The notes: generated from the sequence alone by a model not told the origin. Positions 37,631 to 44,141 are shown, counted from the first letter of the stretch. The stretch is 64,000 nt of DNA from Brevinema sp. (GCA_051649245.1 JBOFGS010000012.1:104510-168509), one strand, 5' to 3'. A program made the numbers and translations.

Positions 37631-37701
37631 AGCGGCTGGGGAGAATCGAACTCCCCGCATTAGCTTGGAAGGCTAAGGTATTACCACTATACGACAGCCG
37701 C
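37631..37701 (-). tRNA. tRNA-Gly (anticodon TCC)
   Basis: GCGGCTG-TC-GTAT-AGTGGTA-ATAC-C-TTAGC-CTTCCAA-GCTAA-variable-GGGAG-TTCGATT-CTCCC-CAGCCGC-T. Confidence 0.85.
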
Positions 37702-37714
37702 TTATTATAATCAT

Positions 37715-37749
37715 ATTTTAACAAAAAAAATAACCTTTGTCAATACTTT
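37715..37749 (-). promoter_or_regulatory. tRNA-Gly promoter: AAAGTATTGACA-17-TAAAAT
   Basis: TTGACA is at 37743..37738 and TAAAAT at 37720..37715. The 12-mer spans 37749..37738. Confidence 0.65.
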
Positions 37750-37844
37750 TGATAAATTTTTATATATTATTTCAATATTGTATTATTTATTTTGTTCAAT
37801 CATGATATTTTTTAGTAATCTTATGAGAAGAATCTTAATGTTAT

Positions 37845-38744
37845 TTATGTTGATAAAATATTTTTATTTTTCGTCAGATCTTTCGTTAGTTGTTCGATAT
37901 ATTTTTTGAAATTATCATCGTTGAGTAAGTTTAATAAATCAGTGATTGTCTGACCATTATTGTTTTTTAATGCAGGATTGGCTTTTTTTTGTAATAATTT
38001 CTTCACAAGAGGACGATTTTTCTTTAGGACAGCCAAATGAAGCAATGTGTTACCATCTTTATCCTTAATGATATTGATATTTGTTACTCGATCAATGAAA
38101 AGATTTACCTGATCCCATTGTTCTGTGTGAATCATTTGAATAATAGGATGTGCAGATACTTCTAATACTTTTAAATTTGTATCTCGTTGATCGTATACTG
38201 TTAGAAGTTTTGCGGTGATAAATTTTGATTCGGGAATTGCATTAACGGTTGAAGTATTTAAGTAAATGCTATTTTCTGGTTTTCCTTTAGCGAGAGCGTA
38301 TTGCAAGGGGGTTTGTTTGTGAATATTTTGAAGATCAATTCTTGCACCTCCTCTAAGCAATAAACCTATCATTTCTGGATTTATCAATGCAGCCATATGT
38401 AGAGGTGTGTTTCCATTATGATCTGCAATATTTATGTTGGCACCATATTCTATAAGATGAAGAACCAAATCATAATTTGTTTTACTGACAGCCCAATGCA
38501 ATGGGGTGCTACTAAATTTATTGAGAGCATTAATATCAATACCTTTTTGAATCAATAAATCAGCAGTTTCAACATCAGAAATAAGATGCAACAAAGACAT
38601 TCCATTATGGTCTTTGACATGCACATTTGCATTTTGAGAAATCATTATTTTAATAGCTTTAAGATCGTTGCGACCTGCTGCCTCAATCAGTGATTGTCCA
38701 AATCCCATCACAGGAAATAAAAATAACAACAGTATTTTTTTCAC
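37845..38744 (-). CDS. Exported ankyrin-repeat protein
   Basis: Signal peptide MKKILLLFLFPVMGFG. Repeats include GMSLLHLISDVETADLLIQKGIDINA, STPLHWAV and GNTPLHMAAL. Confidence 0.85.
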   Translation of the reverse strand: MKKILLLFLFPVMGFGQSLIEAAGRNDLKAIKIMISQNANVHVKDHNGMSLLHLISDVETADLLIQKGIDINALNKFSSTPLHWAVSKTNYDLVLHLIEYGANINIADHNGNTPLHMAALINPEMIGLLLRGGARIDLQNIHKQTPLQYALAKGKPENSIYLNTSTVNAIPESKFITAKLLTVYDQRDTNLKVLEVSAHPIIQMIHTEQWDQVNLFIDRVTNINIIKDKDGNTLLHLAVLKKNRPLVKKLLQKKANPALKNNNGQTITDLLNLLNDDNFKKYIEQLTKDLTKNKNILST

Positions 38745-38753
38745 TCTGATCCT

Positions 38754-40049
38754 CTATACAGTACTTTCTTCATCTATGTATTCATCTACTTCTTCTATCA
38801 CTTCTATTTCTTCTGTAGTAGTTTGTTCATTAATTTTTAAGGCAGGAATAGAAGATGGCTTTGCTCCAAGGCGTGTTAATAAAGCAATCATTTCTTGATC
38901 TTTATTATCTACAGCAAGACTCTGTGCAGTGTGTTGATCAACAGATTCAATATTGTAATCAATGCCCAAGCGAATCAAAAATTCAGCAGTTGATTTATAA
39001 CCATTTTGTACCGTAAATAATAATGCTGTCCAATTATCACTATCAGTTGCGTTGATGTCAGCTTCATAATCTAACAATACCTTAACAGCATCATTATACC
39101 CAAGCTGTGCAGCTGCCATAAGAGGTGTCCAATTTGATACAGTCGATTGCCGTGTTTCTCCGTTGACGGTACGTTCTACATTTGCCATCGCGCCTGCATT
39201 GACATTAGCTCCCATTTGAGCAAGATAGGCGATCATATTTGTATCATTATTTAATGTTGCAAAGATAATAGGTGTGGTGAATTGATTATTTCTGCTATTT
39301 ACATCAAGACCCACCTCTTCAACCAAATATTGAACTGTTCCAAAATTTTTATTTTCAACAGCAAAACGAAGCATGGTATCACCATTATTATTTTTAAGAA
39401 ATGGATCAAGACCGTCTTCCATCAATTCTTTTATCTTCTCAATGTTACCTATAGCAGCAGCTCTATGCAATTGATTATTACCGTTTTTATTCCATTGATA
39501 GAGCTTACTAACTTCCTTAGGTGTTTTAGAAGCAAAAATACTATATGATTTTTTGGGATAAGTATGATCGATGTAATAATTATTAGTATAAAAATACGAA
39601 TTAGTAATAAAATTGGAAATAATTTTAGTTACATTATTTCCTCTCGATGTTATTACTTTGCCTGTATAAGGGATAATTTGCTGAATATAAACGTTTGTAG
39701 AATTAAACACACGAGGCACAGGCAGATCTGTTGGTGTTTCATAAGCACCATATCGTTTGAGAAGAGGCACAATAGACGGAGGTGCAAATCGCAATGGAGA
39801 GCTTCCGGATCTTGTTAATATATTTGGATTAGCTCCATAATCAAGAAGAGTTTTTGCTATGTCATAAAACCCATTCCATGATGCTACATGTAACGCCGTA
39901 AATCCTAAACTGTCAGTTTCGTTAACATTTATTCCTTGTTGTAATGCTTGTTTGATAGCTGGTAGATTGTTGTTTTCCGTTAATTGAATTAAGATACTAC
40001 CAAAGATAATATTTGGAAGAAAAATGATAATATAGATTAATTTTTTCAT
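38754..40049 (-). CDS. Exported ankyrin-repeat protein with a non-ANK central insert and acidic C-tail
   Basis: Signal peptide MKKLIYIIIFLPNIIFG. ANK motifs include GFTALHVASWNGFYDIAKTLLDYGANPN and NWTPLMAAAQLGYNDAVKVLLDYEADINA. The tail is EEIEVIEEVDEYIDEE. Confidence 0.85.
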   Translation of the reverse strand: MKKLIYIIIFLPNIIFGSILIQLTENNNLPAIKQALQQGINVNETDSLGFTALHVASWNGFYDIAKTLLDYGANPNILTRSGSSPLRFAPPSIVPLLKRYGAYETPTDLPVPRVFNSTNVYIQQIIPYTGKVITSRGNNVTKIISNFITNSYFYTNNYYIDHTYPKKSYSIFASKTPKEVSKLYQWNKNGNNQLHRAAAIGNIEKIKELMEDGLDPFLKNNNGDTMLRFAVENKNFGTVQYLVEEVGLDVNSRNNQFTTPIIFATLNNDTNMIAYLAQMGANVNAGAMANVERTVNGETRQSTVSNWTPLMAAAQLGYNDAVKVLLDYEADINATDSDNWTALLFTVQNGYKSTAEFLIRLGIDYNIESVDQHTAQSLAVDNKDQEMIALLTRLGAKPSSIPALKINEQTTTEEIEVIEEVDEYIDEESTV

Positions 40050-40124
40050 AAATACCTAATTTATATGATCTTATTTTATTTATAATATCGGAATTCTATG
40101 GTTTCATATTAGACTAATTCAAAA

Positions 40125-40155
40125 TAAAAAAGCAAGAGATTTCTCTTGCTTTTTT
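40125..40155. terminator. Bidirectional terminator after the 208-aa exported protein gene
   Basis: A6-AGCAAGAG-attt-CTCTTGCT-T5. Confidence 0.6.
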
Positions 40156-40176
40156 ATCTAGGAGTTAGTATTGGTA

Positions 40177-43425: not shown

Positions 43426-43431
43426 TAATTT

Positions 43432-43460
43432 ATTATATATTATTCCAATGATATTGTAAA
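43432..43460 (-). promoter_or_regulatory. Sigma70-like promoter on the minus strand (TTTACA-17-TATAAT)
   Basis: TTTACA is at 43460..43455 and TATAAT at 43437..43432. Confidence 0.45.
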
Positions 43461-43604
43461 GATTTTGCTTGTTATTTATATAATATCACTACTTGCTATT
43501 TTATTTCGTTTTATTAATACCATAAAATTAAGCCTATGATTTGAGTAGAGGTATTTATCTTATCTTTGTTTAAAGATATTATTTGATCTGTTATTTTATT
43601 TTTC

Positions 43605-43632
43605 TTGACATGTAATTTCATTTCTGTTATTA
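43605..43632 (+). promoter_or_regulatory. Sigma70-like promoter on the plus strand (TTGACA-16-TATTAT, or 19 nt to TATAAT)
   Basis: TTGACA is at 43605-43610 and TATTAT at 43627-43632, with TATAAT at 43630-43635. No ORF lies downstream. Confidence 0.45.
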
Positions 43633-43638
43633 TAATTA

Positions 43639-43871
43639 TGGTTAAATCTTAGTAAATTAAAAATAGTTTGTTTTCTATCTTATGCTTTTAAAATAAATGA
43701 TACAGAATTATCAACGAATAATTCTTTTTTATTTTAAAAGTACATTTTTTCACTTGTTTTTGTACCGATTATTTAGTAAATTTGTATTAATTGCTCATAG
43801 CAGTTTGTATATTTTGACGAATGATCGGTATTAGATAGAAATATTTAAAGACTGTCTTGTTAAGATTTAAC
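43639..43871 (+). ncRNA. Candidate structured RNA (about 230 nt) with a three-way junction, unknown family
   Basis: The helices are mutually nested. P1 is 43639-50/43860-71 (12 bp perfect). P2 is 43672-79/43832-39 (8 bp). Hairpin A is 43684-94/43729-39 (11 bp) with an inner stem 43703-10/43717-24 (8 bp). Hairpin B is 43761-70/43821-30 (7 Watson-Crick pairs plus wobbles). It starts where the upstream promoter would initiate. Confidence 0.4.
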
Positions 43872-44010
43872 CAATACAGCTGTTATGGGCTTTATTATTT
43901 ATTATCTACAAAAAGATTCTCAATGGTGTGATACTTGTAGGATGTAAATTATCGAATTTTTCTATATATACTTATATACTTTTTGTACAAAAGTGATTTG
44001 GAATTTAAAA

Positions 44011-44049
44011 CAAAAAAATCAAGTGTAGATTTTATCTACACTTGATTTT
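44011..44049. terminator. Bidirectional terminator downstream of tRNA-Thr
   Basis: A-run-ATCAAGTGTAGAT-ttt-ATCTACACTTGAT-T-run (13-bp core stem, extendable by A:T pairs). Confidence 0.7.
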
Positions 44050-44068
44050 TTAAAAAGAACCTAAGTTC

Positions 44069-44141
44069 CTAGCCCCCTGTGGGAATTGAACCCACGACCC
44101 TCTGATTACAAATCAGATGCTCTACCATCTGAGCTAAAGAG
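44069..44141 (-). tRNA. tRNA-Thr (anticodon TGT)
   Basis: GCCTCTT-TA-GCTC-AGATGGTA-GAGC-A-TCTGA-TTTGTAA-TCAGA-GGGTC-GTGGG-TTCAATT-CCCAC-AGGGGGC-T. The acceptor stem has two G-U pairs. Confidence 0.85.

What the first reader, a model, noticed from the sequence alone, without database searches (positions are those of the whole stretch)
37631..44141. tRNA-Gly to tRNA-Thr islet encoding four exported ankyrin-repeat proteins
Five of the six ORFs between the two tRNA genes carry N-terminal signal peptides. Four of them are ankyrin-repeat proteins (299, 431, 323 and 303 aa), and the fifth is an exported coiled-coil protein. Ankyrin repeats are mainly a eukaryotic interaction module. Secreted bacterial ANK proteins are typically host-interaction effectors. 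The clustering of paralogues between two tRNA genes, followed by 0.9 kb of ORF-free DNA with a rearranged copy of the tRNA-Thr flank, suggests an accessory, horizontally acquired or rapidly evolving islet. No integrase or transposase remains.
Basis: partly seen in the sequence, partly recalled or inferred. Interest (0 to 1): 0.6.

Follow-up and report, generated by a model that had tools for sequence, protein, structure and literature searches.

The report
Old exported-ankyrin gene cluster in Brevinema
The four ankyrin-repeat genes with export signals are real, but they are an old, vertically inherited part of the chromosome of Brevinema spirochaetes, not an imported island; in this genome the cluster has lost its own regulator gene.

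Summary
Observation confirmed. tRNA-Gly(UCC) and tRNA-Thr(UGU) bracket four ankyrin (ANK) genes of 299, 431, 323 and 303 aa and a 208-aa exported helical protein. All five have signal-peptide-like N-termini, judged by a crude rule because SignalP was not available. About 0.94 kb of ORF-free DNA follows.

The interpretation as an acquired islet is not supported. The genome is a 1.53-Mb Brevinema MAG. The cluster sits in the same place and order in most species of the genus and in a second genus; a third genus keeps a core next to tRNA-Gly. Each of the four ANK genes forms its own orthologue clade with 100% support, so there was no recent duplication. GC, GC3 and codon usage match the genome. 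Divergence lies within the range of 33 collinear neighbour genes.

Relatives carry an ECF sigma/anti-sigma pair and a second exported helical protein between the ANK genes. One sister species has lost all the ANK genes.

The proteins are probably Sec-exported binding modules. No secretin or VirB4 was found. The closest parallel is the ANK proteins in Brachyspira exoproteomes.

The ORF-free DNA holds one copy of a multi-copy structured RNA that is absent from Rfam.

The parts
37630..37701 (-). tRNA-Gly(UCC). It is the conserved anchor of the cluster: ANK299 is its upstream neighbour in every genome that has the cluster, including the third genus.
37845..38744 (-). ANK299: ankyrin-repeat protein with a signal peptide (MKKILLLFLFPVMGFG|QS). 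Its orthologue group spans 3 genera.
38754..40049 (-). ANK431: exported protein with an N-terminal ANK block, a conserved non-ANK linker, a C-terminal ANK block and an acidic tail. It is the best-conserved member (46-51% identity within the genus, 64% to the partial orthologue in the closest species, G009) and is restricted to Brevinemataceae.
40124..40157 (.). Perfect 16-bp hairpin with A/T runs on both sides. It looks like a bidirectional terminator between the CC208 gene and the ANK431-ANK299 pair.
   Evidence: I24
40177..40803 (-). CC208: exported protein made of a signal peptide, a disordered acidic linker and a helical hairpin. It belongs to a Brevinemataceae-only family always found upstream of ANK431. 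A conserved TCCGAT box (ACCGAT in G009) lies about 60-75 nt upstream of the start codon.
40951..41130 (-). Pseudogene remnant of an ECF sigma factor (region 2 only, at least 5 in-frame stops). The rest of the sigma gene, the anti-sigma gene and the exported 'b' gene are deleted.
41203..42174 (-). ANK323: exported ankyrin-repeat protein. Its orthologue group is present in two genera.
42216..43127 (-). ANK303: exported ankyrin-repeat protein. Its orthologue group is present within the genus. The best match found outside the genus reaches only generic ANK level (38% identity over 63% of the query).
43290..43460 (-). Small promoter-to-terminator unit (candidate sRNA, about 135 nt). It holds the hairpin TGTAGATAATATCTACA that resembles the tRNA-Thr terminator. 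G003 has two copies at 76-80% identity.
43605..43915 (+). One copy of a genus-wide, multi-copy structured RNA element of about 270-300 nt with its own TTGACA-17-TATTAT promoter. It has no Rfam match.
44013..44051 (-). Terminator hairpin of tRNA-Thr (18-bp arms). It is one partner of the short duplicated motif.
44071..44143 (-). tRNA-Thr(UGU). The DNA just downstream of it is the variable end of the interval in relatives.

Best explanation
The interval is a vertically inherited chromosomal gene cluster ancestral to the family Brevinemataceae (host-associated spirochaetes with reduced genomes). It is not an inserted island.

The inferred ancestral layout is: tRNA-Gly, ANK299, ANK431, exported helical protein 'a' (CC208 here), exported helical protein 'b', a small single-pass anti-sigma-like protein, an ECF sigma factor, ANK323, ANK303, then a variable segment up to tRNA-Thr.

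In this genome the sigma gene has decayed to a stop-riddled stub, and the anti-sigma and 'b' genes are deleted. The four ANK genes and CC208 remain intact.

Shown:
- The identity of the genes.
- Their synteny, their old orthology and their ordinary composition.
- The sigma pseudogene.
- Signal-peptide-like N-termini on 12 of the genome's 14 ANK proteins.
- The absence of secretin and VirB4 genes.

Inferred:
- The proteins leave the cytoplasm by Sec and signal peptidase I.
- They act outside it as protein-binding scaffolds.
- Most likely they are released or exposed at the gut-host interface, as seen for ANK proteins with signal peptidase I signals in Brachyspira exoproteomes.
- The cluster was originally switched on by the neighbouring ECF sigma factor in response to an envelope signal. 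That control has been lost in this lineage.
For: Organism and setting: relatives are titled Brevinema or Brevinemataceae MAGs. The genome is 1.53 Mb with 31% GC.

Synteny:
- The cluster is found beside tRNA-Gly-yajC-secD-secF in G001, G003, G004, G005 and G007, and in G010 of a second genus.
- G002, G006 and G009 have cluster genes on short contigs.
- G011, of a third genus, keeps the a-like gene, ANK431, ANK299 and tRNA-Gly.
- The window is collinear with G004 over about 47 kb.

Orthology: four clades with 100/99 to 100/100 support, each holding one window gene plus its positional orthologues.

Composition: GC is 0.30-0.34 against a genome value of 0.321 +/- 0.029. Codon-usage distance is at the 11th-77th percentile.

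Sigma module:
- Relatives' 166-181-aa proteins match Sigma70_r2 and r4_2 and are 66-81% identical to each other.
- The 103-125-aa gene next to sigma encodes a single TM segment.
- The window remnant reads KTLICCLCRAK..AFVTV*K**DQIS against the relatives' KTLVYRLCRAK..AFVEVWKRWDKVS.
- No second copy of the sigma, anti-sigma or 'b' gene was found in the genome.
- G009 still has the end of 'b' upstream of its CC208 homologue.

Export:
- Signal-peptide-like N-termini by my rule.
- No secretin and no VirB4.
- In Brachyspira, ANK proteins with signal peptidase I signals were found in the exoproteome (PMC4955376).
Against: - There is no experimental or expression evidence for these genes.
- The signal peptides rest on a crude rule that also passes 28% of all ORFs.
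- No binding partner can be predicted from ANK repeats.
- Without a secretin or another known route across the outer membrane, the proteins might simply stay in the periplasm.
- Loss of the sigma gene here and of all ANK genes in G008 shows the cluster is dispensable for at least some lineages.
- The link between the sigma factor and the ANK genes is adjacency only; no promoter was mapped.
Confidence: 0.7

Rival explanations
1. Periplasmic housekeeping or protective role. The ANK proteins stay in the periplasm and bind the cell's own or incoming enzymes as inhibitors, immunity proteins or assembly helpers. Known examples, recalled from my own knowledge, are Pseudomonas aeruginosa AnkB and the Bdellovibrio self-protection protein Bd3460. 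ANK-type T6SS immunity lipoproteins are named only in earlier scan notes, which I did not verify.
For: - Sec signal peptides are present, but no secretin or T4SS was found to carry the proteins further.
- In relatives the cluster is embedded with an ECF sigma/anti-sigma pair and two exported helical proteins, which is typical of envelope-stress modules.
- Exported ANK genes occur in all Brevinematales genomes sampled, including larger ones.
Against: - No enzyme, toxin or hydrolase gene lies beside the ANK genes in any of the genomes.
- In the nearest studied gut spirochaetes, ANK proteins with signal peptidase I signals are found outside the cell.
- Keeping 14 exported ANK genes in a 1.5-Mb host-associated genome is more than a single immunity function would need.
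Confidence: 0.25
2. One reading: an accessory islet acquired horizontally at a tRNA gene, with the integrase since lost, carrying secreted effector paralogues that are evolving fast.
For: - The interval lies between two tRNA genes.
- The cluster is absent from G008, where only 807 bp separate the two tRNAs.
- The end near tRNA-Thr really is variable: G004 carries a restriction-modification gene, a pentapeptide-repeat protein and two more ANK genes there.
- A short duplicated hairpin motif is present.
Against: - Gene order is conserved in three genera.
- The orthologue clades are old.
- Composition matches the genome.
- Divergence is within the neighbours' range.
- There is no att repeat and no integrase.
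- No close homologue of ANK303 was found outside the lineage (for ANK431).
- G008 keeps a weak homologue of the 'b' gene at the site, which points to deletion and not to an empty site.
Confidence: 0.04
3. Functionless relics. After loss of the sigma factor the five genes are no longer expressed and are on their way to deletion, as has already happened in G008.
For: - The sigma, anti-sigma and 'b' genes are lost here and nowhere else in the genome.
- The subclade shows stepwise loss: G009, then G000, then G008.
- The genomes are small, 1.4-1.5 Mb.
Against: - All five ORFs are full length compared with their orthologues and have no stops or frameshifts, whereas the neighbouring sigma stub has gathered at least 5 stops.
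- The TCCGAT box upstream of CC208 is retained.
Confidence: 0.08

Closest known systems
Ankyrin-repeat proteins of the gut spirochaetes Brachyspira hyodysenteriae and B. pilosicoli (exoproteome and surfaceome study, PMC4955376)
   Same: Both are host-gut spirochaetes with many ANK genes. ANK proteins carrying signal peptidase I signal peptides were recovered outside the cell there. The function is unknown in both cases.
   Different: - Brachyspira belongs to a different order, and no orthology was shown.
- Some Brachyspira ANK proteins are lipoproteins, whereas the five proteins here show no lipobox.
- No conserved cluster linked to an ECF sigma factor is described in the passages of that paper that I read.
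ANK proteins with signal peptides from sponge symbionts and their phages ('Ankyphage' ANKp; bioRxiv 10.1101/608950)
   Same: Both have an N-terminal signal peptide followed by ANK repeats and no TM domain. The sponge proteins are proposed to be secreted, and they lower phagocytosis and the immune response of eukaryotic cells.
   Different: They are phage-borne or accessory there, but core-chromosomal and vertically inherited here. There is no sequence relationship beyond the repeat itself. The host effect is untested here.
ANK effectors translocated by type IV secretion in Legionella, Coxiella, Anaplasma and Wolbachia (own knowledge)
   Same: ANK repeats used by host-associated bacteria with reduced genomes.
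   Different: Those effectors use a C-terminal T4SS signal and lack Sec signal peptides. This genome has no VirB4, and these proteins do carry Sec-type N-termini. They are not members of that class.
Periplasmic ANK proteins: P. aeruginosa AnkB and Bdellovibrio Bd3460 (own knowledge); T6SS immunity lipoprotein Tli (named only in earlier scan notes, unverified)
   Same: Sec-exported ANK proteins that act in the periplasm by binding another protein.
   Different: Each of those sits next to its partner enzyme or toxin gene. No such partner gene lies in or beside this cluster in any genome examined.
tRNA-linked genomic islands (integrase-mediated insertion at a tRNA 3' end)
   Same: Location between tRNA genes, and absence from one close relative.
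   Different: There is no integrase, no att repeat and no compositional signal. The cluster is conserved across three genera.

Membership tests
Ankyrin-repeat proteins (Pfam Ank clan) | Several tandem 33-residue ANK repeats scoring above the Pfam gathering cut-off | tested here: met
   Ank_2 scores are 94, 212, 155 and 218 bits against a cut-off of 27.3 for the 299-, 431-, 323- and 303-aa proteins.
Sec / signal peptidase I exported proteins | N-terminal signal peptide with a charged n-region, a hydrophobic h-region and an AXA-like cleavage site, with no lipobox Cys at +1 and no further TM segment | tested here: inconclusive
   All five proteins pass my crude rule, and the feature is conserved in the ANK431 orthologues. 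The rule also passes 28% of all ORFs, and SignalP and LipoP were not available.
tRNA-linked genomic island | Integrase or recombinase gene at one end | tested here: not met
   All ORFs of 60 aa or more in the interval are accounted for, and none is a recombinase.
tRNA-linked genomic island | Direct repeat of the tRNA 3' end (attL/attR) bounding the island | tested here: not met
   No copy of 25- or 45-nt tRNA-end segments was found in 37001-44500, allowing 20% mismatches. The only repeat is a 21-32-nt terminator-hairpin motif.
tRNA-linked genomic island | Composition or codon usage that departs from the host genome | tested here: not met
   GC, GC3 and codon-usage distance are all within the genome's distribution. 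Only the GC3 of ANK323 reaches the 97th percentile.
tRNA-linked genomic island | Patchy presence among close relatives, with an empty site in those that lack it | tested here: not met
   The ANK431 orthologue is present in 10 of 11 other family genomes. The one genome without it, G008, keeps a weak 'b' homologue at the site, which indicates deletion.
T4SS-translocated ANK effectors | A type IV secretion system in the genome | tested here: not met
   No match to PF03135 (VirB4/CagE/TrbE) in the 94%-complete genome.
T2SS or T3SS secreted proteins | An outer-membrane secretin | tested here: not met
   No match to PF00263.
ECF sigma / anti-sigma controlled module | An intact sigma-70 region 2 plus region 4 protein with an adjacent single-pass anti-sigma gene | tested here: not met
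   The feature is met in the relatives. In the window only a region-2 stub with at least 5 stops remains, and there is no other copy in the genome.
ECF sigma / anti-sigma controlled module | Cluster genes transcribed from sigma-dependent promoters | not testable with these tools
   Only a conserved TCCGAT box (ACCGAT in G009) upstream of the 'a' gene was seen. No transcription data were available.

The most novel reading that the evidence does not exclude
The cluster is a regulon ancestral to the family. An ECF sigma factor senses an envelope or host cue and switches on a set of Sec-exported ankyrin and helical-hairpin proteins that Brevinema uses to hold its place on animal gut mucosa. On this reading the stepwise decay seen in one subclade tracks a change in how these lineages live with their hosts: the module was intact in the ancestor, the sigma factor is lost here, and all ANK genes are lost in the sister species. 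The cluster would then be the first candidate colonisation locus for a spirochaete lineage reported as abundant in salmon gut.
Probability: 0.25. Interest if true: 0.5.

Novelty: new member of a known kind. Interest (0 to 1): 0.3.

Why it matters
Brevinema was among the most abundant genera in farmed Atlantic salmon gut content and mucosa in one study, and nothing is known about how it deals with its host. The papers I could search say nothing about its ANK proteins.

This work removes a false lead: the interval is not a pathogenicity-island-like insert. It replaces it with a defined, conserved set of five exported proteins, plus a sigma/anti-sigma pair in relatives, that can be tested in the cultivable species B. 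andersonii.

It also gives a clean example of reductive evolution caught in progress within one gene cluster.

Tried and rejected
- **ORF-free 0.94 kb as a decayed gene.** Relatives have a MATE transporter or other genes at this position. tblastn of all the relatives' interval proteins found nothing there.
- **CC208 as a Spy/CpxP/LTXXQ-type periplasmic chaperone.** The LPxxEQ motif suggested it. There was no Pfam hit, and Foldseek found only generic helical hairpins at E of 0.098 or worse.
- **'Rapidly evolving'.** ANK orthologue identities fall inside the spread of 33 collinear neighbours.
- **Recent tandem duplication.** Rejected by the tree.
- **Donor lineage for horizontal transfer.** The best hit for ANK303 outside the lineage is 38% over 63% of the query. 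For ANK431 the best is about 26%.
- **att repeats**, **secretin** and **VirB4**: none found.
- **Rfam match for the ORF-free DNA.** None beyond the tRNAs.
- **Conserved small ORF in the repeated RNA element.** None.
- **The RNA element as a leader of a fixed downstream gene.** The neighbouring genes differ from copy to copy.
- **Literature.** The papers found that mention both Brevinema and ankyrin do not connect the two.
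Full report
**1. What is there**

ARAGORN and Rfam place tRNA-Gly(UCC) at 37630-37701 and tRNA-Thr(UGU) at 44071-44143, both on the minus strand. Six minus-strand ORFs lie between them. The 299-, 431-, 323- and 303-aa products match Pfam Ank_2 at 94-218 bits against a cut-off of 27.3. The 208-aa and 69-aa products match nothing. No ORF of 60 aa or more lies in 43128-44070.

All four ANK proteins and the 208-aa protein begin with a short charged stretch, a hydrophobic core and a small-residue site, with no Cys in a lipobox position. 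They pass a crude signal-peptide rule of my own. That rule also passes 28% of all ORFs of 150 aa or more in the genome, so it is weak evidence. The feature is kept in the ANK431 orthologues. Twelve of the genome's 14 ANK ORFs pass the rule, and a thirteenth looks the same by eye.

**2. Whose genome**

The window is contig 12 of a 1.53-Mb, 24-contig assembly that is 94% complete and has 31% GC. Public relatives of the 431-aa protein carry the titles Brevinema sp. or Brevinemataceae MAG. These are spirochaetes of the order Brevinematales. In one study Brevinema was among the most abundant genera in Atlantic salmon gut content and mucosa.

**3. Is it an island? No**

I located secD and the sbcCD fusion gene in 30 relatives, fetched the DNA between them and compared gene content.

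- Five same-genus species (G001, G003, G004, G005, G007) and a species of a second genus (G010) have ANK299 and ANK431 orthologues directly upstream of tRNA-Gly-yajC-secD-secF. Further on, in the same order and orientation, lie orthologues of ANK323, ANK303 or both.
- G002, G006 and G009 show the same genes on short contigs.
- G011, of a third genus, keeps the CC208-like gene, ANK431, ANK299 and tRNA-Gly together, but next to tsaD.
- A profile of ANK431 orthologues finds one strong match in 10 of the 11 other family genomes. A scan of all GTDB species finds nothing comparable outside the family.

A maximum-likelihood tree of the cluster's ANK proteins plus the other ANK proteins of this genome gives four clades with 100/99 to 100/100 support. 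Each clade holds one window protein and its positional orthologues. The 'paralogues' therefore separated before the genera did.

GC (0.30-0.34), GC3 and codon-usage distance of the five genes sit inside the distribution of 1163 genome ORFs.

The window is collinear with G004 from about 0.6 to 48 kb. Thirty-three neighbour orthologues have a median identity of 54.9% (interquartile range 45.6-65.5). The ANK orthologues, at 39.5, 50.2 and 35.5%, fall at the 21st, 42nd and 15th percentiles. They are on the fast side but not exceptional.

There is no integrase and no att-like copy of either tRNA end.

**4. What the relatives add**

Between the ANK431 and ANK323 orthologues, the relatives carry four more genes on the same strand:
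- an exported helical protein homologous to CC208 (family 'a');
- a second exported helical protein (family 'b');
- a 103-125-aa protein with one TM segment;
- a 166-181-aa protein that matches Sigma70_r2 and Sigma70_r4_2.

The sigma factor is the best-conserved gene of the cluster, at 66-81% identity including between genera.

In the window, the 399 bp between ANK323 and CC208 translate, in one minus-strand frame, to YFLYKTLICCLCRAKKHTT*AFVTV*K**DQIS... The relatives read EFYEKNKTLVYRLCRAK...AFVEVWKRWDKVS at the same place. This is a region-2 stub with at least five stops.

tblastn finds no other sigma, anti-sigma or 'b' copy in the genome. G009 is the closest species (SecD fragment 89% identical; ANK299 and ANK431 64%; CC208 58%). 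It still has the C-terminal end of a 'b' gene right upstream of its CC208 homologue. The loss is therefore specific to this lineage and recent.

G008 (SecD 85% identical) has only 807 bp between tRNA-Thr and tRNA-Gly. That stretch holds a 174-aa exported ORF that is a weak 'b' homologue, with E of 1e-5 to 6e-6 in a very small database. This points to a deletion and not to an empty site. The subclade thus shows stepwise reduction of one cluster.

**5. The 208-aa protein**

Its only hits in a database of 5.8 billion proteins are itself and the G009 orthologue. Pairwise BLAST links it to the positional equivalents in seven other genomes at 21-34% identity.

AlphaFold2, run on a six-sequence alignment, gives a signal helix, a disordered acidic stretch (residues 18-64), two long antiparallel helices (73-120 and 126-180, pLDDT above 90 over 80-170) and a third helix. 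Foldseek against the PDB returns only generic helical hairpins and BAR-like folds, with E of 0.098 or worse. 'Exported coiled-coil-like protein' stands as a description. Its function is open.

**6. How it probably works**

The gene products and the signal-peptide-like N-termini are shown. The rest is inferred.

The genome has no secretin and no VirB4. Routes of the T2SS, T3SS or T4SS kind are therefore unlikely, and Sec plus signal peptidase I is the only export step supported.

In Brachyspira, another gut spirochaete, up to 55 ANK accessions were detected, mainly in the exoproteome and surfaceome. The exoproteome-exclusive ones with a LipoP assignment had SPI signals (PMC4955376). Sponge-phage ANK proteins with signal peptides lower phagocytosis and immune response.

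My preferred reading is that these are extracytoplasmic protein-binding modules released or exposed at the gut interface, and that they were formerly under ECF-sigma control. The main rival is a purely periplasmic role as inhibitors or helpers. It cannot be excluded, but no partner enzyme gene lies nearby in any genome.

A conserved TCCGAT box about 60-75 nt upstream of the 'a' gene in seven genomes, including this one, with ACCGAT in G009, may be part of the relevant promoter. This is a lead only.

**7. The ORF-free DNA**

It is not a decayed gene. It holds two promoter-to-terminator units.

(a) 43290-43460(-). This unit contains the hairpin TGTAGATAATATCTACA, which is what resembles the tRNA-Thr terminator. 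The match is 19 of 21 nt, and none of 300 shuffles reached it. G003 has two copies of the unit at 76-80% identity.

(b) 43605-43915(+). This is one copy of a dispersed element.
- Copy number: 44 matches in G001, 32 in G002, 17 in G007, 3-10 in the other same-genus genomes, one weak 27-nt match in the second genus and none in the third. This genome has one more long copy and three partial matches.
- In 25 aligned long copies the -35 and -10 hexamers are almost invariant, while the spacer and the upstream DNA are not.
- RNAalifold predicts 38 pairs, 28 of them with compensatory double changes.
- On the four main helices, 93.5% of cells pair. The controls give 80.0% in shuffles and 41-49% when partners are slid. 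24 of 34 pairs show double changes, which 0 of 500 shuffles reached. G-U pairs fit the plus strand.
- By eye, a further helix differs in sequence in every copy yet stays complementary.
- There is no Rfam match, no conserved small ORF and no constant neighbouring gene.

This unit overlaps an earlier first-stage note. I report it as noticed in passing.

**8. Verdict**

The island interpretation is not supported. What remains is an ordinary but undescribed cluster of exported ANK genes, conserved across the family and caught in reductive decay. That makes it a new member of a known kind, of modest interest.

Noticed in passing
window 43605-43915 (+); also G000 C17:4269-4560, C14:11093-11216, C13:5260-5381; loci L043-L068: A multi-copy structured RNA element of about 270-300 nt with its own conserved TTGACA-17-TATAAT promoter. 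It gives up to 44 matches per genome in the genus, one weak match in a second genus and none in a third. Covariation is strong: 24 of 34 pairs have double changes, and 93.5% of cells pair against 41-49% when partners are slid. By eye, one helix differs in sequence in every copy yet stays complementary. There is no Rfam match, no conserved ORF and no fixed neighbouring gene; the copies whose flanks I read often sit among accessory genes (integrase-like, Fic-like, XRE-like and ParB-like by N-terminal sequence). It looks like an undescribed RNA family.
   Followed up: partly
window 43290-43460 (-); L073:1167-1275 and 2757-2853: A small promoter-to-terminator unit of about 135 nt with two hairpins (TGTAGATAATATCTACA and a GC-rich CUCC-UAUA-GGGG). 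G003 has two copies at 76-80% identity, about 11-13 kb beyond its sbcCD gene. It is a candidate sRNA. It explains the 'copy of the tRNA-Thr flank'.
   Followed up: partly
window 44315-48178 (+): SbcD and SbcC are encoded as one 1287-aa polypeptide. The same fused reading frame (1163-1300 aa) holds the match in the 9 family genomes whose contig spans the gene, and there is no comparable match in the other families of the order.
   Followed up: partly
L002 (G004 C16) 9023-17981, between the ANK303 orthologue and tRNA-Thr: The end of the interval near tRNA-Thr is a real variable spot. G004 carries there two extra ANK genes, a 572-aa pentapeptide-repeat protein and a 1223-aa Eco57I/MmeI-like type IIG restriction-modification enzyme with DUF7814 and DUF7149. 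Next to the ANK303 orthologue, G005 has a MATE transporter gene (Pfam MatE) and G003 and G007 have similar ORFs.
   Followed up: partly
relatives L009:6335-6901, L003:6394-6981, L001:3845-4369 and others: A family of exported helical proteins of about 175-210 aa ('b') always lies between the anti-sigma-like gene and the CC208-like gene. It has no Pfam match. It is the only cluster gene kept in G008.
   Followed up: partly
whole genome G000 (C12, C18, C19, C23, C24): A 1.53-Mb genome carries 14 ANK ORFs, 12-13 of them with signal-peptide-like N-termini. Several lie in pairs (C12:172480-174565, C18:159035-162305). ANK repeats were found in all 19 Brevinematales genomes searched (2-94 domain matches each).
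   Followed up: partly
window 34680, 37749 and 44198 regions: The tRNA-Gly and tRNA-Thr genes have strong sigma-70-type promoters (TTGACA-17-TAAAAT and TTGACA-17-TATAAT) and long perfect terminator hairpins. I did not examine it.
   Followed up: no
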